Source: an uncultured Actinomycetes bacterium
GTDB taxonomy: Bacteria > Actinomycetota > UBA4738 > HRBIN12
Direction of reading: 5' to 3'
Assembly: GCA_963704885.1 (NCBI GenBank)
Contig: CAVPIB010000007.1
Span: forward strand, 192,001 to 256,000
Length of the DNA: 64,000 nt
A program made the translations under genes and the position numbers. Positions 2,532 through 9,794 of the stretch are shown one piece after another (within the stretch, counting starts at the first letter, position 1; every line of letters begins with the position of its first letter). The notes below the pieces were generated by a model, which made no database searches, had not been told where the DNA came from, and worked only from the letters and a program-made list of their open reading frames with translations.

Positions 2532-2822
2532 TTCACCGCGTGGAGCGTGAGCAGCACGAACCCCTCCTCGAACGTTGCCGGCACGGTCGTCGCTCCGGCG
2601 ATCGCCTCGGACATCGTCACCGACACCACGACCCGACCGCAAGCCATCTTCGGTCGGAGGTCTGGCGCCAGCAACTCGGGCGCTTGATCGGGGGGTGCTC
2701 CGACGCCCCTGCAGGGGAGTAGAACCCCAAGCACCCAGCGTCGAACGTCTCGTGATGGCCCCGGTGGCTGAGGTCCGGTCCTAGCCGTTCAGCTCCCGCC
2801 CTGGGTGAATGCGCCCTATAGG

Positions 2823-3416
2823 ATGTGGTCGTTGTCCGCCTATCTCGCGCTCTTCGCATCCTCGATCGGACCCGTGTCGCTGTTCCTGGCGTTGCTAGCC
2901 GTGCTCGCGCAGGTGAGCGTGCTCGTCGCCGTCGTGTTATGGGTGGCGGCGAGGTTCTCGGACGGTGCGGCCCGAACCAAGGCACGTCTCCTGGGCGCGA
3001 TCGGTCCATCGGCATCGTGGCTCGCCTGGGGGGTGGCACTCGTTTGCACCCTTGGCAGCCTCTACTACTCCGAGGTTGCCCACTTCGTTCCGTGCAAGCT
3101 CTGTTGGTACCAGCGGATCGCTATGTATCCGCTGGTGGTGGTGCTTGGCGTGGCGGCATGGCGCCAGCGAACCGAGATCGCTCGTGCCACCTTGCCTCTC
3201 GTCGCCATCGGCGCGGCGATCTCGACCTACCACTACCTGCTGGAGCGGTTCCCTTCGTTGGAGAGCGCTGCCAGTTGTGACCCCTCCGCGCCATGCACGG
3301 TGGTGTGGGTGTGGCGGTTCCACTACCTGTCGATCCCGGCCATGGCCCTGAGCGGCTTCGCGTTGATCGCCGTCCTCATCCTCATCGCGACCGACCCCGA
3401 CCCCGGAACGGAGTGA
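2823..3416 (+). CDS. dsbB: Disulfide bond formation protein DsbB/BdbC family
   Basis: [19 protein letters not shown] motif, a second Cys pair (SC...PC), several TM helices. Confidence 0.9.
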
Positions 3417-4075
3417 CCACGATGCCGTCAGCCAGCAAACGTCGAGCGATGGAGCGGGAGCACCGGCGACGTCAGATGCGCACCGTCGGTATCGCGGTGG
3501 CGGCTGTCGCCGCGGTCGCGATCGCGGCGATCGTGGTGAGCGCGCTCGGGGGTGAGGAGTCAACCGACCCCCGGGTCAGTCAGACAAGGCCCGTCACCGT
3601 AGCGGGCGAGCCGCTCCCGGCCTTCGGCGCGGAGCCAGATCCCGCCGTCGGGATGGCGGCGCCGGGCCTCGAAGGAGAGACGTTCGACGGTTCGCCGATC
3701 TCGATCACGCCAGGCCAGGGGCCGATGGCGATCTGGTTCGTGGCGCACTGGTGTCCGCACTGCCAAGCCGAGGTGCCCCGTATCGTCGCGCTCGCGGAAC
3801 AGGGCAAGCTCCCTGACGGTGTCCAGATCGCCGCGGTGTCCACGGGCGAAGATCCCGCCGGGCCCAACTACCCCCCGTCGGCCTGGCTCGAGGTCGAAGG
3901 GTGGCCCTTCCCCGTGCTGGCCGACGACGAGAACGGCACGGCCGCCACCGCATACGGGTTGGGGGGGTTCCCGTTCCTCGTACTGGTCGATGCCGACGGG
4001 AACGTCACGGCTCGCGCCTCAGGCGAATTGGGGGACGATGGCATCGTCGCCGCCCTGAACAGCCTGGCGGGCTAG
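3413..4075 (+). CDS. Membrane-anchored TlpA/DsbA-like thioredoxin (WCPHC)
   Basis: N-terminal TM anchor, AHWCPHC, GFP cis-Pro loop; GTGA overlap with the dsbB stop. Confidence 0.85.
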   Translation: MTTMPSASKRRAMEREHRRRQMRTVGIAVAAVAAVAIAAIVVSALGGEESTDPRVSQTRPVTVAGEPLPAFGAEPDPAVGMAAPGLEGETFDGSPISITPGQGPMAIWFVAHWCPHCQAEVPRIVALAEQGKLPDGVQIAAVSTGEDPAGPNYPPSAWLEVEGWPFPVLADDENGTAATAYGLGGFPFLVLVDADGNVTARASGELGDDGIVAALNSLAG

Positions 4076-4125
4076 ACCGGATGACGCAGCCTTCAGGCGT
4101 CGTCGGTGTGTGTGGGGAAGCTTGC

Positions 4126-4151
4126 GGAATAGACCCGGGCTTTCCGGTGTC
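4126..4151 (+). promoter_or_regulatory. ECF (SigR/SigH-like) promoter GGAATA-N16-TGTC
   Basis: Same spacing as four other copies in the cluster; ends 9 nt before GTG 4161. Confidence 0.55.
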
Positions 4152-4160
4152 CACACTGTT

Positions 4161-4733
4161 GTGAAGTCACCGCGGGCCTTCGCTGGCCTATCCTTGCTCG
4201 TCGGAGCCTTGGCCATGCTCGCGGCCGCGTGCTCGTCAGCGGCCGCTCCTATCGCCGATACGCCTTCGGCCACGAGAAGCACGCCGTCTCCTAGCGTAGC
4301 GGCCTCCGTCGCAGGTCCCGCCACGGTCCCCGAGGTGCTGGACTTCGAGGCTCCCGCTCTGGCCGGCGGGACCCTGAAGGGAGCCGACTACTCGGGCAAG
4401 GACCTCGCCATATGGTTCTGGGCGCCGTGGTGAACGACTTGTCAGGGGGAAGCCCCTGAAGTCGCGCGGGTCTCGCGCGCCTACGCAGGTCAGGTCGAGT
4501 TCCTCGGCATGGCGGGACGCGACTCGACCGACGCCATGCAGAGGTTCGTCGACAACTTCTCCCTGACGTTCCCGCAGGCTGTTTCCGAAGACGGCTCCTT
4601 ATGGGCGCGCTTCGGTGTCCCTTACCAGCCTGCCTGGGTCTTCGTGAACGACGACGGCCACGCTCAGGTCGTCTCCGGTGCGATCCCCGAGGACGATCTG
4701 AAGAAGATCCTCGATCAGCTGATCGCGGCTTAG
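4161..4733 (+). CDS. TlpA/peroxiredoxin-like thioredoxin-fold lipoprotein, selenoprotein (Sec at TGA 4431-4433, UxxC)
   Basis: ORFs 4110..4433 and 4509..4733 are in the same frame. Read-through gives WFWAPW-U-TTC-QGEAPEV...FGVPYQPAWVFV, a complete thioredoxin fold. Lipobox LAAAC. Hairpin immediately 3' of the UGA. Confidence 0.88.
4435..4464 (+). promoter_or_regulatory. Bacterial SECIS-like hairpin
   Basis: CGACT-(TG)-TCAGGGG-[GAAG]-CCCCTGA-AGTCG; the loop starts with G at +16 nt after the UGA. Confidence 0.8.
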
Positions 4734-4737
4734 CGTC

Positions 4738-5100
4738 CTACTCGGTCGACCCTCGGAACTCCAGGGCATAGGTCCACCGGGCTGGGTCTTCTGCGTGCTC
4801 GAAGCGCAGGAGCCTGCCCTCCTCGCCGCCGGGCAGGACGACGGGCAGTCCGACGTGCTCGTCCGTCGGCCACAACTCCTGCCTGACATCGTCCTCCAGC
4901 ACCAGGAGGGTCATCGGGTGTTCTCCATCTCGTTCGAGAGGTGGGTGCCAATCGTCGTCCTCGAGCCGCCGGACCCGGACGAAGCGGGGTACCGCGTGCA
5001 GGAGCACCGGCTCACCGGGAGACTTCCAGGCCTTACCGAAGAATCGCCAGCGCTCCCCATCCTTGGACGTCTCGATCACCCAACATTCCTCCGCACCCAT
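4738..5100 (-). CDS. Hypothetical protein (120 aa)
   Basis: ATG 5100 with an RBS-like GAAGGGAGG upstream, just after the ccdA stop; globular-looking sequence. Confidence 0.65.
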   Translation of the reverse strand: MGAEECWVIETSKDGERWRFFGKAWKSPGEPVLLHAVPRFVRVRRLEDDDWHPPLERDGEHPMTLLVLEDDVRQELWPTDEHVGLPVVLPGGEEGRLLRFEHAEDPARWTYALEFRGSTE

Positions 5101-5120
5101 GGGCCGCGGTCCTCCCTTCA

Positions 5121-5873
5121 TCACAGCGGGGGCTCGAAGTTGTTGACCAACCGAAGCACCGGCCCCATGACCTGGGTCCATAGACCAGAGATGAGCAACA
5201 CGCCGATCGAGACCATGATGACACCCGATACCAAGGAGATCGCCTCGTGGTGCCGCTTGAGTACGTCGAGGGCTCCCATCAGCCGGCCGACGCCCAGGCC
5301 GAGCAGGATGAACGGCAAGCCGAGGCCCATCGAGTACACGAACAGCAGCAACGATCCCCTTGCAGAGTTGCCCTGAACCGTGGCGAGCGCCAGCGTTCCG
5401 GCCAGGACCGGACCGATGCAAGGGGTCCATCCCGCGGCGAAGGCCATCCCCAAGGGATAGGCCGATGCGCGACCCGGGCGTAGCTTGGTCAGGAAGGGGC
5501 GCCTATCCGCATACAGCGCCGCCGTTCCGGCTCGGAGTCCCTGCAGGATCAAGATCATCCCGACGCCCGCCACCACGACTCCCGCGATCCGCTGCCCCGT
5601 CTGCGACCGAACGATGGGCACGAGCGTTCCCGCGAACGCACCCAGCGCGGTGAACACGGTGGCGAACCCCGCCACGAAGAACAGCATGGGTGCGATGTCG
5701 GGTCGCGTCGTCACACCGCTCGTTCCACCTACCGCCGCACGCGCTTGCGTGCCGGAGACGAACGAGAGATAGCCGGGCACGAGCGGCAACACGCATGGTG
5801 AGGCGAAAGAGACCACGCCCGCTGCGAACGCTATGAGTGGCGCCCACCAAGCCGTGAGATCGAAGACCGACAT
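5121..5873 (-). CDS. ccdA: CcdA/DsbD-family transmembrane thiol-disulfide transporter
   Basis: SFASPCVLPLVPGY and GWTPCIGP motifs; about 6 TM helices. Confidence 0.92.
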   Translation of the reverse strand: MSVFDLTAWWAPLIAFAAGVVSFASPCVLPLVPGYLSFVSGTQARAAVGGTSGVTTRPDIAPMLFFVAGFATVFTALGAFAGTLVPIVRSQTGQRIAGVVVAGVGMILILQGLRAGTAALYADRRPFLTKLRPGRASAYPLGMAFAAGWTPCIGPVLAGTLALATVQGNSARGSLLLFVYSMGLGLPFILLGLGVGRLMGALDVLKRHHEAISLVSGVIMVSIGVLLISGLWTQVMGPVLRLVNNFEPPL

Positions 5874-5876
5874 CGG

Positions 5877-6500
5877 TCAGGCTGTGACGCCGAGATCGGT
5901 TTCGATCAGCTGCTCCAGGGACGCGGCGTCCAACCCACCGACCCAGACCTCGGCGATCTCCCCTCCGGGACGGATGAAGATCGTGGTCGGCATCCCCACC
6001 CCACCTGAGGCATTGAAGAAGACCCCGCTGCGGTCGATCGCTGTCGGATAGGTGATCCCGGTCTCCTTGGCGAGCGCGATGCTGGCGCTCGCGGCATCGC
6101 TCTGTGAGATCCCAAGGAAGGCGACCTGGTCACCAAGCTTCTTATGTACCTGCTCGAAGTCCGGCATCTCACCGATGCAGTTGGGGCACCACGACGCGAA
6201 GAAGTTGATAACGAGCGGCTTGTCGGCCAGCGTCGAGTACTCGACCGTGCCGCCCCCTTCGAGCGCCGGCAACTCCAAACTCTCCAGGGTCCCGCCGGTC
6301 CGGATATCCCCCGCGTAGGCGACTCCGCCGGCGCCGTTGCGGATCAGGAGGAAACCGATCCCCACGACGGCGATCAAGACCACGGCTGCGATACCCGCCG
6401 AGCGCAGTCGGGCCTTGTGACGGGCGTGCTTCGCTCGCCTCTCACGAGCTGCTCGCGCCTGTACATTCCTCTCGCCTTTGCTCGCGGCGCGCTCAGCCAC
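5877..6500 (-). CDS. TlpA/ResA-family membrane-anchored thioredoxin (WCPNC)
   Basis: VINFFASWCPNCIGEMP, GMPTT; AGGAGG RBS before GTG 6500. Confidence 0.9.
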   Translation of the reverse strand: MAERAASKGERNVQARAARERRAKHARHKARLRSAGIAAVVLIAVVGIGFLLIRNGAGGVAYAGDIRTGGTLESLELPALEGGGTVEYSTLADKPLVINFFASWCPNCIGEMPDFEQVHKKLGDQVAFLGISQSDAASASIALAKETGITYPTAIDRSGVFFNASGGVGMPTTIFIRPGGEIAEVWVGGLDAASLEQLIETDLGVTA

Positions 6501-6564
6501 CCGTCCTCCTGTCGGTCGGGGTTTCCTCGCATGGCCGCGGTCACCCCGCGGCCTCAGCATGTCC

Positions 6565-6590
6565 GACGCCCGTGGACACCGCGCGATTCC
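6565..6590 (-). promoter_or_regulatory. ECF promoter GGAATC-N16-CGTC for the tlpA-ccdA operon
   Basis: Exact motif on the minus strand. Confidence 0.75.
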
Positions 6591-6600
6591 GCACCTAGGG

Positions 6601-6626
6601 GGAATCTTCGAACAGGGAGCGGCGTC
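6601..6626 (+). promoter_or_regulatory. ECF promoter GGAATC-N16-CGTC for the DUF3179 gene
   Basis: Exact motif, back-to-back with the divergent copy. Confidence 0.75.
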
Positions 6627-6663
6627 CCAAGAGAAAGATGTTCATGCCAGGGAGTCAGCGCCG

Positions 6664-7815
6664 ATGAGGATCGGGCGCATCGCCGCGCTGATAGCGGCGC
6701 TCGCGGTCTTCGCCGCAGCTTGCAGCGGCGGAGCCACCCGCTCGCCGGATGCCGGTGAAAGCGCCTCCGCATCCGATAGCTCGTCGGAGGGAGTGACGCC
6801 ACCGCTCATCGATCTCGACGACATCATCTCCGGCGGTCCTCCGCCCGACGGCATCCCGCCGATCGACGACCCGAAGTTCCTGGCGCCTGAAGACGTCACG
6901 TTCCTGGTTCCCCAGGAACCAGTGATCGCGGTCGAGGTCGAGGGTGTGGCGAAGGCGTACCCGATCCGCATCCTGATGTGGCACGAGATCGTGAACGACG
7001 TCTTCGACGGCACGCCCGTCGTAGTGACGTACTGCCCTCTATGTAACACGGGGATCGCATACCTCCGCCCAACCATCGACGGAGAGCTCCTCGACTTCGG
7101 GACCAGCGGAAAGCTCTACAACTCGAACCTGATCATGTACGACCGCCAGACCAACTCTTACTGGCCCCAGGCGATGGGTAAGGCGGTCGTCGGGCCACTC
7201 ACGGGTGAGGAGTTGGAGTTCGTGCCGGCTCGGATCCTGTCGTGGGGGGACTGGTTGCTGGCCTACCCCGACGGGTTCGTGCTCTCGACCGACACGGGGG
7301 TGTCTCGGACGTACGGGAGCAATCCGTACGCCGGGTACGACCACGAATCGGTCCCATTCCTGTTCGCCGGCGAAACCGACCCACGGCTTCGCGCTAAGGA
7401 GCACATCCTGGGGATCGCCGGCGAGGGCGGCGCGATCGCGTTCCCGTTTTCCGAGCTCGCGAGTCGGGCGACGGGTGGCGCGACCGTGGTTCAAGGTTCG
7501 TTCGGCGGCCCGCGCCTGGTGGTCTTCTGGCAGGCGGGAACGGTGTCCGCTCTTGACGCGGCAGAGATCCCCGAGTCAGAGGATGTGGGTGCCGCCGCTG
7601 CGTACGTCCCCGTCGTCGATGGGCAGCGCCTGACTTTCGAGGTGCAAGGCGGGCGCTTCGTAGACCAGCAGACGGGGTCGGTGTGGTCGATCGACGGCCG
7701 CGCGCTCACCGGTCAGCTGGCGGGTTCCCGGCTCGAGGTGGCCTTGGCTATCGATAGCTTCTGGTTCGACTGGGCAGCCTTCCATCCTGAAACGGAGATA
7801 TTCGGACAGGCGTGA
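6664..7815 (+). CDS. DUF3179 domain lipoprotein (Cys form, CPLC)
   Basis: Lipobox FAAAC; GGPPPDGIPPID, HEIVND, TYCPLCNTG, FGTSGKLYNSNLIMYDRQT, FWFDW motifs. Confidence 0.9.
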   Translation: MRIGRIAALIAALAVFAAACSGGATRSPDAGESASASDSSSEGVTPPLIDLDDIISGGPPPDGIPPIDDPKFLAPEDVTFLVPQEPVIAVEVEGVAKAYPIRILMWHEIVNDVFDGTPVVVTYCPLCNTGIAYLRPTIDGELLDFGTSGKLYNSNLIMYDRQTNSYWPQAMGKAVVGPLTGEELEFVPARILSWGDWLLAYPDGFVLSTDTGVSRTYGSNPYAGYDHESVPFLFAGETDPRLRAKEHILGIAGEGGAIAFPFSELASRATGGATVVQGSFGGPRLVVFWQAGTVSALDAAEIPESEDVGAAAAYVPVVDGQRLTFEVQGGRFVDQQTGSVWSIDGRALTGQLAGSRLEVALAIDSFWFDWAAFHPETEIFGQA

Positions 7816-7872
7816 ATGCGGTCATCCGGTTCGATGGTGGCGAGGTCACTCGCGTGGTTGTCGGCTCGCCCC

Positions 7873-8541
7873 TCAGCCGTCGATATCCAGGATCTGGTCG
7901 ACGACTTCGTCGAGATCGCGGCCGACCACGTCGGGGGGACCGACGAGAGGCGCCCACGTCTGGCCTGGGCGTGCGACGAACGCTGCCGCCCACCCCGCAC
8001 TCTTCGCCCCGATAACGTCCCAGTCGTGCGCCGCCACGAGCCGAAGCGCCTCCGGCGCGACACCCAACCGCTCCGAGGCCATCAGGTAGGCCTCGGGCGC
8101 CGGCTTGAATCGCCCAACGGTCTCTACGGAGAGCACGGGATCGAGCAGATCCTCCAGACCTGCGTGCGAGAGTTGAGCGTCGGCGACCGCGGCGGTGGAG
8201 TTCGTCAGAGCACAGGTGTGGAACCCGGCGCTCCGCAGCCGCCGGATGGCTGCGGGCACTTCGGGATGCGCGGGCAGCTCGCGCATCTTGCCGAGCAGCC
8301 GCTCCAGCGCGGGCCCGTCCAGATGTCGGCCGCGGCGGTCGGCGACCGCCAGGAGCGCGGCCCGACCCACCTGCCCGAAGTCGCTGTCCAGGCCCGTGAG
8401 CGTGGCCACGAGCGACAGGTGGAGCATGCGAGCGAACCACTCACGGAGTGCGTCGTCATCGCCGAGGGCTTCGGCGAACGGCTCTCGCATGACAGATAGG
8501 TCCAGCAGCGTCTGGTTCACGTCGAACACGATCGTCCTCAT
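7873..8541 (-). CDS. Haloacid dehalogenase type II (HAD)
   Basis: FDVNQTLLD, LTNS, FKPAPEAY, AAHDWD motifs. Confidence 0.88.
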   Translation of the reverse strand: MRTIVFDVNQTLLDLSVMREPFAEALGDDDALREWFARMLHLSLVATLTGLDSDFGQVGRAALLAVADRRGRHLDGPALERLLGKMRELPAHPEVPAAIRRLRSAGFHTCALTNSTAAVADAQLSHAGLEDLLDPVLSVETVGRFKPAPEAYLMASERLGVAPEALRLVAAHDWDVIGAKSAGWAAAFVARPGQTWAPLVGPPDVVGRDLDEVVDQILDIDG

Positions 8542-8585
8542 GGGATGCCTCCCGTGCGCTTCCTTCCAGACGATATGCAGGTCGG

Positions 8586-9794
8586 TCAGGCGCCGACCGC
8601 GGCGTCCGCCTTGTCCATGAAAGCCCGGATCTGCAGCGCCACCGCCGCACCTTCTCCAACCGCCGATGCGAGCTGCTTCGTCGATCCCGCTCGGACGTCG
8701 CCGGCCGCGAACACACCCCGCGCGGAAGTCATCAGCGTGGATGGATCGGTGACGACGAATCCCCACTGGTCGAGCTCGATCTGACCTCGCAGGAACTCGG
8801 TGTTCGGATCCAGCCCGACGAAGATGAACGCGGCAGCCGGATCGAACTCCTTGAGCGCTCCCGTCGCGCGATCTTCGACGATCACGGTCCCGAGCTTGCC
8901 TCCGTCCGTCGCCTTGAACTCCTTGACCGCGTGCGAAGTGAGGACGTCCATCCTCGGATGAGACCGCACCCGGTCCTGCAGGATCTTGGAAGCCTTCAGC
9001 GTGTCGGCGAACTCGATCACTGTCACGTGATCGGTGAACTGCGTGAGGAAGAGCCCCTCTTCTAGGCCCGAGTTACCGCCGCCGACCACCATCAGCTCCT
9101 TCGAGCCCTTGTAGAACGGCCCGTCACACGTCGAGCAGAAGTGGATGCCCCCGCCGATCAACTCTTCTTCTCCGGGGGCGCCTGTGCGCCGGTACGACGA
9201 CCCGGTCGCGACCAGCACGGCACGGGCTTCGTAGTGGTCGCCGGTAGCGGTCATCACAGCGAGGCAGGTCTCGTCGAGATGCGAGATCGACGTAACGCTC
9301 ACGGCCTGCAGCATCTCCACGCCGTAGCGCTCCGCCTGCTCGACGAACCGATCGGCGAGCTCCGCCCCCCCGATGCCCTCGGGGAAGCCCGGGTAGTTGT
9401 CCAGGCGCTCCGTTACGCCGGCCTGTCCGCCCAGGCCCTTGGAGTCGATGACCAGGGTCTCGAGGTCCTCGCGCGCCGAGTAGATGGAGGTGGTCAGGCC
9501 GGTCGGGCCCCCGCCGATGATGATCAGGTCGTAGATGTGCATGCTCGCGACCCGGGAGATCCCGAGCTTGTCCGCCAGCTCTTCGTTCGAAGGCTCTGAC
9601 AGATGGGACCCGTCCGGGAACACGATCGTTGGGATCACGTTGTTCCCGTCGTTGCGCTCCTGCACGATGCGCTGACCCTCGGGTTCGACGCCGATGTCGT
9701 GCCATTCGAACGGGACACGCTGGTCGGCCAGGAACTTCTTCGAACGCTTGCAGTCGGGGCACCAGTCGGCGCCGTAGAGCTTGATGTCGGCCAT
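8586..9794 (-). CDS. trxB: Glutaredoxin/NrdH-like domain fused to thioredoxin reductase
   Basis: N-terminal WCPDC redoxin; GGGPTG FAD motif, CSTC active site, GGGNSG, TS..GVFAAGD. Confidence 0.9.
   Translation of the reverse strand: MADIKLYGADWCPDCKRSKKFLADQRVPFEWHDIGVEPEGQRIVQERNDGNNVIPTIVFPDGSHLSEPSNEELADKLGISRVASMHIYDLIIIGGGPTGLTTSIYSAREDLETLVIDSKGLGGQAGVTERLDNYPGFPEGIGGAELADRFVEQAERYGVEMLQAVSVTSISHLDETCLAVMTATGDHYEARAVLVATGSSYRRTGAPGEEELIGGGIHFCSTCDGPFYKGSKELMVVGGGNSGLEEGLFLTQFTDHVTVIEFADTLKASKILQDRVRSHPRMDVLTSHAVKEFKATDGGKLGTVIVEDRATGALKEFDPAAAFIFVGLDPNTEFLRGQIELDQWGFVVTDPSTLMTSARGVFAAGDVRAGSTKQLASAVGEGAAVALQIRAFMDKADAAVGA

What the first reader, a model, noticed from the sequence alone, without database searches (positions are those of the whole stretch)
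4161..4733. Hidden selenoprotein: exported thioredoxin-fold lipoprotein with UxxC and a SECIS hairpin
Seen: the two ORF-track fragments share a frame, and the only interruption is TGA 4431. It falls exactly where the first Cys of CxxC belongs (WAPW-TGA-T-T-C; neighbouring paralogs have WCPHC and WCPNC). The 25 codons between the fragments are stop-free and fit the TlpA helix and strand. Directly 3' is a 12-bp bulged hairpin (4435-4464) with a G-initiated GAAG loop 16 nt from the UGA. Established: bacterial Sec insertion uses a UGA followed by a downstream SECIS with an apical G. Inference: this is a Sec-containing lipoprotein oxidoreductase of the cell envelope that standard gene callers would split or call a pseudogene. 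It would imply selABCD elsewhere in the genome.
Basis: partly seen in the sequence, partly recalled or inferred. Interest (0 to 1): 0.92.

Follow-up and report, generated by a model that had tools for sequence, protein, structure and literature searches.

The report
Hidden selenocysteine DsbF-like lipoprotein gene

Summary
Window 4161-4733 (+) is one gene with a single in-frame TGA (4431-4433) at the first position of the CxxC motif (WFWAPW-U-TTC). The genome has tRNA-Sec, selA, selB, selD and a Sec-type formate dehydrogenase. In 43 of 223 genomes of the same family an ortholog is found, and every match that spans the site keeps the TGA. Homologs in other Actinomycetota have Cys there. The closest solved structures are the M. 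tuberculosis DsbF and MPT53/DsbE proteins. Public gene calls end at ...WFWAPW.

One correction concerns the SECIS. The likelier SelB-binding element is a second hairpin (H2, 4463-4479) with a GGUCU loop, the same loop as in this lineage's formate dehydrogenase SECIS. A GGU-loop hairpin occurs in 85 of 92 distinct Sec forms, at nt 30 with no H1 or at nt 39 always with H1. H1 therefore looks like an accessory spacer or pausing hairpin.

Some orthologs have UxxU. UxxC thioredoxin-fold selenoproteins are a known kind, so this is a new member. The SECIS architecture is the more novel part.

The parts
4161..4733 (+). Complete selenoprotein gene: 190 codons with TGA 4431 read as Sec, stop TAG 4731-4733. 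The start is GTG 4161 or possibly GTG 4110.
   Evidence: Ortholog G004 also begins ...VKHPS.... Pfam AhpC-TSA 46.8 bits, Redoxin 39.7 and Thioredoxin 38.1, all above their cut-offs.
4161..4232 (+). Signal peptide ending in a lipobox-type Cys24 (codon 4230-4232, ...LAAAC|SS). This predicts a lipoprotein anchored on the outer face of the membrane. Prediction is from sequence only.
   Evidence: A hydrophobic run followed by [AGS]C is found by regex in 27 of 31 genome orthologs (3 more have it after a Pro, read by eye; 1 lacks its N-terminus), and in 49 of 53 metagenome forms that have 95 or more upstream codons. Cys24 is nearly invariant in alignment A4. Residues 1-55 are modelled at pLDDT 51-61.
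4431..4433 (+). UGA codon for Sec91, the N-terminal nucleophilic position of the UxxC active site.
   Evidence: It aligns with the invariant first Cys of CxxC in 20 Cys homologs and in DsbF and MPT53. TGA is kept in 43 of 44 match rows in 223 family genomes. It lies directly before helix 92-107 of the model.
4440..4442 (+). TGT codon for Cys94, the resolving residue of UxxC.
   Evidence: Invariant C94 in A4. Replaced by a second TGA (UxxU) in G145, G146, G148 and in metagenome loci L180, L219.
4435..4464 (+). The core is 4443-4458 (6 bp, loop GAAG 4449-4452). The lower stem 4435-4439/4460-4464 is less conserved. Proposed role: accessory spacer and/or ribosome-pausing hairpin.
   Evidence: The core is 91% paired in A1, with compensatory AU<->GC (7) and GC<->CG/AU (6) changes. 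The lower stem is paired in only about 60-73% of cells. A stable hairpin in nt 10-31 is found in 45 of 45 type-B forms and in 7 of 38 type-A forms.
4463..4479 (+). Hairpin H2: a 6-bp G+C stem (4463-4468/4474-4479) with loop GGUCU (4469-4473). Proposed SelB-binding core of the SECIS.
   Evidence: H2 is 95-96% paired, with compensatory changes. G39, G40 and T41 are invariant in A2. The loop is the same pentaloop as in the FdhA SECIS of this genome and in 24 of 24 distinct relatives' FdhA sequences. Synonymous sites are frozen: GTC 30/31, GCG 30/31, GCG 28/28, and the rare CGA 24/31.
4629..4631 (+). CCT codon for Pro157, which aligns with the Pro of the cis-Pro loop of the thioredoxin fold (YQPAW).
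   Evidence: Aligned with QQPAY of DsbF and WQPAF of MPT53. Q156 is invariant in A4.
2805..4075 (+). Context only: a DsbB-family membrane protein (2805-3416) and a membrane-anchored TlpA-like paralog with WCPHC (ORF 3293-4075) directly upstream on the same strand.
   Evidence: This neighbourhood is not conserved: found beside the ortholog in 0 of 33 other Sec loci.
5121..6560 (-). Context only: CcdA/DsbD_TM (5121-5873) and a ResA/TlpA-like paralog with WCPNC (5877-6560) on the opposite strand.
   Evidence: Not conserved beside the orthologs.

Best explanation
Window 4161-4733 encodes a genuine selenoprotein. It is an exported, probably lipid-anchored, single-domain thioredoxin-fold thiol-disulfide oxidoreductase of the actinobacterial DsbF/MPT53(DsbE) type. 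The attacking Cys of CxxC is replaced by selenocysteine, giving U91-T-T-C94.

Shown: (1) the UGA aligns with the catalytic Cys of homologs; (2) it is conserved in orthologs, with protein-level conservation on both sides; (3) the genome has the full Sec machinery and a second selenoprotein, FdhA; (4) the RNA just 3' of the UGA carries two conserved, covarying hairpins under synonymous-site constraint.

Inferred mechanism of decoding: SelB-GTP-Sec-tRNASec binds the second hairpin (H2, 4463-4479, loop GGUCU), whose loop is the same as in this lineage's FdhA SECIS. The first hairpin (H1, 4443-4458) is accessory. When folded it takes 16 nt out of the path. About 13 single-stranded nt then separate the UGA from H2, against 12 nt in FdhA. 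H1 also sits where a structure would meet the ribosome's mRNA entrance while UGA is in the A site.

Inferred mechanism of the protein: after Sec-pathway export and lipidation at Cys24, Sec91 attacks substrate disulfides or thiols and forms a selenenylsulfide with Cys94. By likeness to Mt-DsbF/DsbE, which act as oxidants in vitro, the most likely role is thiol-disulfide exchange or oxidative folding of envelope proteins, made faster by the selenolate. The direction (oxidant or reductant) and the redox partner are not settled.
For: Machinery: tRNA-Sec at C1:490477-490567 (70.9 bits against a 47-bit cut-off; ARAGORN SeC/tca). selA 493 bits, selB 321 bits (adjacent genes) and selD 373 bits, all above cut-off and without internal stops. 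FdhA carries CNRT-U-HAPS.

Conservation: 43 of 223 family genomes have an ortholog at E<=1e-28. Of 44 match rows, 43 have an in-frame TGA; the one without covers residues 94-189 only. The motif WFWAPW-U-xxC was read in 31 loci. Nucleotide diversity by codon position is 0.28/0.25/0.42 downstream and 0.28/0.21/0.44 upstream of the TGA.

Sec/Cys pairs: WFWAPW-C-xxC occurs in 17 DNA-level homologs and 20 database proteins.

Fold: DsbF 3IOS E=1.8e-34 and MPT53 1LU4 E=1.3e-27 by sequence. The model has pLDDT 95-98 over residues 56-190. Foldseek gives 3IOS TM(target) 0.95, rmsd 1.1 A, and 1LU4 0.92.

Not an error: contigs of 4 runs from 4 studies cover the TGA with no listed difference.

SECIS: A1, A2 and A3 all exceed their shuffled and slid controls. 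85 of 92 distinct Sec forms have a hairpin of 4 bp or more with GGU in its loop. The figure is 4.9% for shuffles and 2 of 17 for Cys forms. The FdhA loop GGUCU is invariant in 24 of 24 distinct sequences. Synonymous diversity is 0.25 in codons +1..+16 against 0.38 elsewhere (permutation p=0.023), with rare codons exactly where pairing needs them. H1 accompanies the distal H2 position in 45 of 45 forms.
Against: There is no direct evidence of selenium incorporation or of expression. No RNA run holding this stretch was available.

Rfam models give no SECIS match in 4300-4600, even at E<=10. No NCBIfam selenoprotein model passes its cut-off.

The H2 loop lies 17 nt further from the UGA than the FdhA loop. 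G40-U41 of H2 are also the first two bases of a conserved Val codon, so part of the loop's conservation could be protein-level.

The type-B forms are related to one another. The perfect H1/H2 co-occurrence may therefore be one evolutionary event, not 45.

The gene neighbourhood is not conserved, so context gives no partner and no direction of the redox reaction.

Lipidation is predicted from sequence alone.
Confidence: 0.85

Rival explanations
1. The gene is a selenoprotein, but the SelB-binding SECIS is the first hairpin (H1, 4435-4464, GAAG loop). H2 would then be conserved for other reasons, such as amino-acid sequence, G+C bias or mRNA stability.
For: The H1 loop lies at nt 19-22 from the U of UGA. 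That is close to the position of the FdhA loop in this genome (nt 22-26) and to the 15-31 minihelix described for E. coli (passages of PMC8659212). H1 covaries. In most sequences its loop starts with G.
Against: H1 loops vary (GAAG, GCNG, ACCG, UCCG, CACCGC and others) and lack the G-U of the lineage's FdhA loop. The 38 type-A Sec forms have no excess structure at nt 10-31 (mean -3.3 kcal/mol against -4.2 for shuffles), yet all have a GGUC hairpin. In UxxU type-B forms the second UGA lies 1-3 nt before H1, so H1 could not stay folded while that codon is in the A site (inference). H2 shows frozen synonymous sites and the rare CGA codon.
Confidence: 0.12
2. The TGA is a true stop. The locus would then be a pseudogene or two separate small genes: an N-terminal lipoprotein stub, and a C-terminal fragment starting at ATG 4509.
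For: Standard gene calls treat it this way (P0028 and P0033). TGA is also the ordinary stop codon of most orthologs: 26 of 31 end in TGA.
Against: The TGA is kept at the same codon in 43 of 44 match rows across 9 genera and in 67 metagenome loci. The downstream half shows coding-type conservation: diversity at codon positions 1/2/3 is 0.28/0.25/0.42, and amino-acid identity to the window is 45-71%. The stop falls in the middle of one thioredoxin domain, and neither half could fold alone. The 25 codons between the fragments are conserved, and ATG 4509 is not a conserved start.
Confidence: 0.02
3. The UGA is read through without selenocysteine, for example by near-cognate Trp or Cys insertion, or the protein is made only at trace level by leaky termination.
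For: Nothing in the sequence can prove which residue is inserted. No expression data were available.
Against: The full Sec machinery and a canonical Sec-FdhA are present. The site is the redox-active Cys position. The downstream hairpin carries the same loop as the FdhA SECIS. Cys forms of the family lack such hairpins: 2 of 17 have one.
Confidence: 0.03
4. The TGA is a sequencing or assembly error for TGC/TGT.
For: The genome is a draft of 20 contigs with 4.5% estimated contamination.
Against: Contigs of 4 public runs from 4 studies cover 4431-4433 with no listed difference, although they differ at nearby positions. The same TGA is present in 42 other genomes.
Confidence: 0.005

Closest known systems
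Mycobacterium tuberculosis DsbF (Rv1677, PDB 3IOS) and MPT53/DsbE (Rv2878c, PDB 1LU4)
   Same: Same single-domain thioredoxin fold with the extra N-terminal beta-hairpin region. By sequence, E=1.8e-34 and 1.3e-27. For the model, TM(target) 0.95 and 0.92, rmsd 1.1 A, 46% and 40% identity. The active-site context is nearly the same (WFWAPW-x-xxCQGEAP) and the cis-Pro loop is the same. Both are exported. Mt-DsbE and Mt-DsbF oxidatively fold hirudin in vitro and do not reduce insulin (passages of PMC3853704).
   Different: The first active-site Cys is Sec, encoded by UGA plus a SECIS. There is no conserved neighbourhood with a DsbD/CcdA-type partner. The organism is an environmental member of Actinomycetota. 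The activity of the Sec form is untested.
[quoted passage not shown]
   Same: Same fold class and the same UxxC (and UxxU) redox motif. Cys homologs are widespread. All were found by computation (table passages of PMC13188914, PMC1088965 and PMC1794560).
   Different: I could not see sequences of those families; accession numbers only, and supplements are closed. Identity with the cd02966 'isomerase-like' family cannot be excluded or shown. No paper found in my searches names DsbF/MPT53-type selenoproteins. No NCBIfam model covers this protein.
NCBIfam NF041054, ResA-like WAxxUGC motif-containing protein
   Same: A TlpA/ResA-like fold with Sec in the active-site region and a WA..U context.
   Different: Score 25.3 bits against a cut-off of 300. 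The profile is 354 positions long and the motif is UGC, not UxxC. The window's protein is not a member.
Bacterial SECIS of formate dehydrogenase (E. coli fdhF type)
   Same: A hairpin in the coding sequence just 3' of the UGA whose apical loop carries G-U. In E. coli, G23 and U24 and the bulged U17 are the conserved positions, with U17 and G23 named as the SelB-binding sites, and the minihelix sits 11 nt from the UGA (passages of PMC8659212). The FdhA of this genome has its loop GGUCU at nt 22-26. H2 carries the same pentaloop.
   Different: In the window the GGU loop is at nt 39-43, with an extra covarying hairpin (H1) between it and the UGA. A sister group of the same protein family has a single hairpin with its loop at nt 30-33. 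Rfam models do not detect either form in the window.

Membership tests
Bacterial selenoprotein gene | In-frame UGA aligned with Cys (or Sec) in homologs | tested here: met
   U91 aligns with the invariant first Cys of CxxC in 20 proteins, 17 DNA-level Cys forms, and DsbF and MPT53.
Bacterial selenoprotein gene | UGA and both flanks conserved among orthologs | tested here: met
   43 of 44 match rows in 223 family genomes carry the TGA. Coding-type conservation is seen downstream.
Bacterial selenoprotein gene | Conserved stem-loop (SECIS) shortly 3' of the UGA, with a G-containing apical loop | tested here: met
   H1 and H2 covary. A GGU-loop hairpin is found in 85 of 92 Sec forms, against 4.9% of shuffles. 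Which hairpin binds SelB is inferred, not tested.
Bacterial selenoprotein gene | selA, selB, selD and tRNA-Sec in the same genome | tested here: met
   all above the curated cut-offs. Sec-FdhA is also present.
Bacterial selenoprotein gene | Selenium actually incorporated at the UGA | not testable with these tools
   Needs 75Se labelling or mass spectrometry.
Rfam SECIS families | Match to a curated SECIS covariance model | tested here: not met
   No SECIS family matched in 4300-4600 at E<=10.
DsbF/MPT53 (actinobacterial DsbE-type) TlpA-like thioredoxin-fold oxidoreductases | Thioredoxin fold with the N-terminal extension, closest to DsbF/MPT53 | tested here: met
   (TM 0.95 and 0.92, rmsd 1.1 A).
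DsbF/MPT53 (actinobacterial DsbE-type) TlpA-like thioredoxin-fold oxidoreductases | CxxC active site at the N-terminus of helix 1, and the cis-Pro loop | tested here: met
   UxxC at residues 91-94 directly before helix 92-107. QP at 156-157 aligns with the QP of DsbF and MPT53. The first Cys is Sec, so this is a variant.
DsbF/MPT53 (actinobacterial DsbE-type) TlpA-like thioredoxin-fold oxidoreductases | Export signal (lipoprotein or secreted) | tested here: met
   A hydrophobic N-terminus with a lipobox-type Cys is conserved. This is a sequence prediction only; no dedicated predictor was available.
DsbF/MPT53 (actinobacterial DsbE-type) TlpA-like thioredoxin-fold oxidoreductases | Oxidant activity (oxidative folding) in vitro | not testable with these tools
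   [quoted passage not shown] Untested for the Sec form.
NCBIfam NF041054 ResA-like WAxxUGC selenoprotein | Score above the curated cut-off (300 bits) | tested here: not met
   25.3 bits.

The most novel reading that the evidence does not exclude
This protein family carries a bipartite bacterial SECIS. The SelB-binding GGUC hairpin has moved three codons downstream, from nt 30 to nt 39. A separate, covarying 'spacer' hairpin (H1) has evolved between it and the UGA. When folded, H1 restores the canonical single-stranded distance: about 12-13 nt, as in the lineage's FdhA. H1 may also pause the ribosome at the UGA. In the UxxU (diselenide) orthologs one such SECIS serves two UGA codons 9 nt apart. 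H1 would be folded for the first UGA and unwound by the ribosome for the second. The same RNA would thus present two working distances in turn.
Probability: 0.35. Interest if true: 0.7.

Novelty: new member of a known kind. Interest (0 to 1): 0.5.

Why it matters
This adds a widespread, unannotated selenoprotein to Actinomycetota. Its closest characterised relatives are the mycobacterial envelope oxidoreductases DsbF and DsbE.

It gives natural Cys, Sec (UxxC) and double-Sec (UxxU) versions of one extracytoplasmic disulfide enzyme. That is a ready-made series for asking what selenium buys in thiol-disulfide exchange outside the cytoplasm.

Annotation pipelines currently split or truncate the gene. 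No NCBIfam or Rfam model catches it, so a family model would repair many records.

One protein family has two SECIS layouts (loop at nt 30 alone, or loop at nt 39 with an intervening hairpin) and also UxxU forms. This makes the long-discussed spacing rule between the UGA and the SelB site directly testable.

Tried and rejected
1. Rfam scan of 4300-4600 at E<=10 gave only three chance-level matches (CC1840, nhaA-II, a lncRNA piece) and no SECIS family.

2. I ran two genome-wide scans of my own for further selenoprotein genes. One looked for a GGU-loop hairpin after an in-frame TGA and returned 531 candidates. The other used a GC3/GC2 frame filter and returned 33 candidates. Both were dominated by off-frame ORFs or by adjacent genes in the same frame in this high-G+C genome. 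The second did not even recover the two known cases. No conclusion is drawn from either. Of 5 AhpC-TSA matches in the genome, only the finding has a TGA.

3. Gene context as a clue to the partner or direction of the reaction led nowhere. The window's DsbB-like, TlpA-like, DUF7712 and CcdA neighbours were found beside the ortholog in 0 of 33 other Sec loci. The 26 'ResA' hits are cross-matches to the Sec gene itself. Ten neighbours in six other loci belong to unrelated families.

4. An outer stem enclosing both hairpins appears in some single-sequence folds but not in the RNAalifold consensus, so I dropped it.

5. The promoter and terminator consensus scan of 3950-4950 found 0 of each. This is uninformative.

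6. RNA evidence: no RNA holder was listed for this stretch. One run guessed to be RNA (X19) holds contigs of a relative under 90% alike. I make no statement on expression.

7. G020 (L052) gave a 29%-identity match with one TGA. I found no UxxC in a plausible frame there and did not resolve it.

8. The related-loci scan of genome contigs used peptide patterns with C at the Sec site, so it was biased towards Cys forms. Its Sec:Cys ratio means nothing.

9. The tree (quick method) places 28 of 31 Sec forms in one clade (SH-aLRT 89). It leaves L025+L099 and L054 unresolved among basal Cys forms. One origin of Sec is neither shown nor excluded. Rows left out of the tree: P0014, P0016-19, P0022, P0027 and P0034 (my regex did not find the motif), P0028 and P0033 (fragments), and P0001 (the same as the window).

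10. Supplements of papers were closed. Lists of family members in the selenoproteome papers may already contain this family.

Unpublished genomes: G120 (L076) and G220 (L082) are among the Sec orthologs counted. G008 (L115) is among the FdhA loci. G059, G041, G049 and G034 enter only the tallies. No conclusion depends on them.
Full report
OBSERVATION. TGA at 4431-4433 is the only interruption between an N-terminal ORF (GTG 4110 or 4161 to 4433) and a C-terminal ORF (ATG 4509 to TAG 4733) in the same frame. Reading TGA through gives 190 residues with the local motif AIWFWAPW-U-TTCQGE. The two neighbouring paralogs carry WCPHC and WCPNC. Pfam AhpC-TSA (46.8 bits), Redoxin (39.7) and Thioredoxin (38.1) matches lie above their cut-offs and span both halves. 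A second hairpin with loop GGUCU (4469-4473) is also part of that fold.

SEC MACHINERY. The window is C7:192001-256000 of a 3.0-Mb, 20-contig genome, 97% complete with 4.5% contamination. The genome holds these Sec components:
- tRNA-Sec: 70.9 bits against a 47-bit cut-off; ARAGORN calls it SeC with anticodon tca.
- selA (493 bits) and selB (321 bits), adjacent on C1.
- selD: 373 bits, on two small contigs with equal scores.
- A formate dehydrogenase alpha subunit with one in-frame TGA at the canonical CNRT-U-HAPS site.
The same Sec-FdhA was found in 24 of 24 other same-family genomes searched (25 of 25 with G000), and in 31 of all 41 genomes searched.

CONSERVATION OF THE UGA.
- Among 61 relatives, the six best orthologs (47-67% identity, five genera) all had one in-frame TGA.
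- Across all 223 genomes held for the family, 43 had an ortholog at E<=1e-28.
- Of the 44 match rows, 40 had one TGA and 3 had two.
- The single row without a TGA is a contig-end fragment covering residues 94-189 only.
- Reading 33 loci, 31 showed WFWAPW-U-xxC at the same codon. The other two showed WFWAPW-U-ST-U.
- Nucleotide diversity by codon position downstream of the SECIS (0.28/0.25/0.42) is like that upstream (0.28/0.21/0.44). Amino-acid identity to the window downstream is 45-71%. The frame is therefore under protein-level selection past the UGA.
- TGA is also the normal stop of 26 of the 31 orthologs. The recoding is site-specific, not a change of genetic code.

SEC/CYS PAIRS AND IDENTITY OF THE PROTEIN.
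- Homologs in other Actinomycetota have Cys at the site (WFWAPW-C-xxC). The record titles name Mycobacterium, Sporichthyaceae, Demequinaceae, Micromonosporaceae, Nanopelagicaceae and others. This covers 17 DNA-level cases and 20 database proteins of up to 53% identity.
- In alignment A4 the Sec position and C94 are invariant Cys columns, and the lipobox Cys24 is nearly invariant.
- The closest solved structures by sequence are M. tuberculosis DsbF (3IOS, E = 1.8e-34) and MPT53/DsbE (1LU4, E = 1.3e-27). ResA and CcmG types come far behind.
- An AlphaFold model has pLDDT 95-98 over residues 56-190 and places Sec91 directly before helix 92-107.
- The model superposes on 3IOS with TM(target) 0.95 and on 1LU4 with 0.92, both at 1.1 A.
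- Residues 1-55 (signal peptide, lipobox ...LAAAC|SS, Pro/Ser/Thr/Ala-rich linker) are modelled at low confidence.
- A hydrophobic run ending in [AGS]C is found by regex in 27 of 31 genome orthologs. Three more have it after a Pro, and one lacks its N-terminus. It is also found in 49 of 53 metagenome forms with enough upstream sequence.

NOT AN ARTEFACT. Contigs of four public runs from four studies cover 4431-4433. No difference is listed there, while they differ at nearby positions such as 4439, 4442, 4450 and 4451; the last two lie in the H1 loop. Fifteen less-supported differences were not shown by the tool. Public gene calls of relatives end exactly at ...WFWAPW (P0028, P0033). This confirms that gene finders truncate the family.

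THE SECIS.
- In 30 distinct orthologous 72-mers, aligned without gaps, both hairpins are conserved.
- The H1 core is 91% paired, with compensatory AU<->GC (7 sequences) and GC<->CG/AU (6) changes.
- H2 is 96% paired and nearly invariant.
- The covariation score is 0.143, against 0.062 for shuffles and at most 0.084 for slid controls.
- Synonymous diversity is lower in codons +1..+16 (0.25) than in the rest of the gene (0.38; permutation p = 0.023).
- Rare codons sit exactly where pairing needs them: CCT 21/30, GAA 17/20, CGA 24/31. In H2 the synonymous choices are near-fixed: GTC 30/31, GCG 30/31, GCG 28/28.

The key comparison is with FdhA. In this genome its SECIS has a 6-bp upper stem capped by GGUCU at nt 22-26, counting the U of UGA as 1. 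In 30 relatives' loci (24 distinct sequences) that pentaloop is invariant, while the stem covaries between GUGGUC/GGCCAC and GUCGUC/GGCGAC. H2 of the window carries the same GGUCU loop, at nt 39-43. H1 loops have no conserved sequence.

Of these, 67 loci (62 distinct sequences) passed my filter for an open frame on both sides and C or U at the fourth position. The other 13 were dropped as chance matches or as having too little flank. Results on all 92 distinct Sec forms taken together:
- 85 have a hairpin of 4 bp or more with GGU in its loop.
- The first G of that GGU lies at nt 30 in 38 forms (type A), at nt 39 in 45 forms (type B, including the window), and at nt 25 in 2 forms.
- Shuffled sequences give 4.9%, and Cys-form homologs give 2 of 17.
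- Type A is a single hairpin whose closing pair and tetraloop C-GGUC-G are invariant (38 of 38). It covaries strongly: 43 cells changed on both sides; score 0.467 against 0.131 for shuffles and at most 0.159 for slid controls.
- In type B (45 sequences), 5 pairs have changes on both sides, a count reached by 0 of 500 shuffles. The score is 0.157 against 0.069.
- A stable hairpin within nt 10-31 (H1) is present in 45 of 45 type-B forms (mean -11.9 kcal/mol; shuffled -6.3).
- There is no excess structure at nt 10-31 in type A: mean -3.3 against -4.2 for shuffles, with 7 of 38 at or below -6.

From this I infer that the GGU(C)-loop hairpin is the SelB site, and that H1 is an accessory that goes with the distal position. 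In the window, 9 nt precede H1 and 4 nt separate it from H2. With H1 folded, about 13 single-stranded nt lie between the UGA and the H2 stem. The FdhA of this genome has 12, and E. coli has 11 (passage of PMC8659212). H1 also begins 9 nt after the UGA. From general knowledge of ribosome footprints, not from any call, that is about where a structure meets the mRNA entrance while UGA is in the A site. A pausing role is therefore equally possible. The type-B forms are kin, so the 45 of 45 co-occurrence is not 45 independent events.

UxxU VARIANTS. In one genus, three of four orthologs have a second TGA in place of the resolving Cys: U-ST-U in G145 and G146, and U-HT-U in G148. The fourth, G130, has U-RT-C. 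Two type-A metagenome loci have U-PF-U. The two UGAs are 9 nt apart and are followed by one SECIS. The working distances to the GU of the loop are then about 21 and 30 nt in type A, and about 30 and 39 nt in type B. In type B, H1 starts 1-3 nt after the second UGA, so it cannot stay folded while that codon is decoded (inference). This argues against H1 as the SelB site.

CONTEXT. In the window the gene sits in a cluster of envelope redox genes:
- DsbB-family protein (2805-3416).
- TlpA-like WCPHC paralog (3293-4075).
- The Sec gene (4161-4733).
- On the other strand, DUF7712, CcdA/DsbD_TM (5121-5873) and a ResA-like WCPNC paralog (5877-6560).
- Further on, DUF3179 and a glutaredoxin-thioredoxin-reductase fusion (8586-9794).
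None of these neighbours lies beside the ortholog in 33 other loci, including a same-genus genome. Other loci have unrelated neighbours. The partner and the direction of electron flow remain open.

COMPARISON WITH WHAT IS KNOWN. UxxC and UxxU thioredoxin-fold selenoproteins are well known from computational surveys. [quoted passage not shown] I saw these in table passages of PMC13188914, PMC1794560 and PMC1088965. The kind is therefore known.

My searches found no paper naming a DsbF/MPT53-type selenoprotein. 'selenocysteine' with 'DsbF' returned 0 papers. A 2026 paper on mycobacteria reports FDH as their single selenoprotein (passages of PMC13449736). No NCBIfam model passes its cut-off: the best selenoprotein model, NF041054, scores 25 bits against a cut-off of 300. 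I could not open supplements, so the family may already sit in someone's list. I did not find the two-hairpin layout described, but that was one search, not a survey of the SECIS literature.

VERDICT. This is a real, unannotated selenoprotein gene and a new member of a known kind. The SECIS architecture and the UxxU forms are the parts worth an experiment.

Noticed in passing
L100, L101 (G146, G145), L142 (G148); metagenome L180, L219: Orthologs with a second in-frame TGA in place of the resolving Cys (WFWAPW-U-xx-U). This is a predicted diselenide active site, served by a single downstream SECIS.
   Followed up: partly
L058:3096-3161 (Sporichthyaceae MAG, Cys form): A Cys-form homolog (WFWAPW-C-TIC) whose downstream RNA still folds into two hairpins, the second with a CGGGU loop at the type-B position (-25.9 kcal/mol). 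It could be a relic of a recent Sec-to-Cys change, or chance. L055 also has a weak 4-bp GGU hairpin.
   Followed up: no
G000 contigs C14/C20, C9/C11, C16/C18: Near-identical stretches occur on pairs of small contigs: selD on C14 and C20 with equal scores, and the same candidate sequences on C9/C11 and C16/C18. The assembly probably holds duplicated or strain-variant contigs, in line with the 4.5% contamination estimate.
   Followed up: no
G000 C1:502016 and C1:503516: Two nearly identical stretches lie 1500 nt apart on contig C1, seen in the candidate list. This is a direct repeat of unknown nature.
   Followed up: no
window 2805-9794: A cluster of envelope and thiol redox genes: a DsbB-family protein, two CxxC TlpA/ResA-like paralogs, CcdA, DUF3179, and a glutaredoxin fused to a thioredoxin-reductase-like flavoprotein (8586-9794, -). 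ORFs 2805-3416 and 3293-4075 overlap by 124 nt as listed, so the true start of the second is probably later.
   Followed up: partly
L077-L095 (genus g19 orthologs), about 10-25 nt upstream of the start codon: The in-frame translation of the 5' leader is conserved (…YH[RG][VLPM]M…) across many g19 orthologs. This points to a conserved leader or ribosome-binding region, or to an earlier start.
   Followed up: no
G000 C1:490477-490567 and C1:361112-364324: tRNA-Sec lies about 126 kb from the selA-selB pair. This differs from the selC-selAB arrangement described for mycobacteria in PMC13449736.
   Followed up: no
L052 (G020:C132): A 29%-identity TlpA-like match with one in-frame TGA that I could not interpret. 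No UxxC was found in a plausible frame.
   Followed up: partly
The type-A forms come from many contigs whose record names mention marine, estuarine or sediment sources. The Sec form of this family seems common in the environment. Habitat was not analysed.
   Followed up: no
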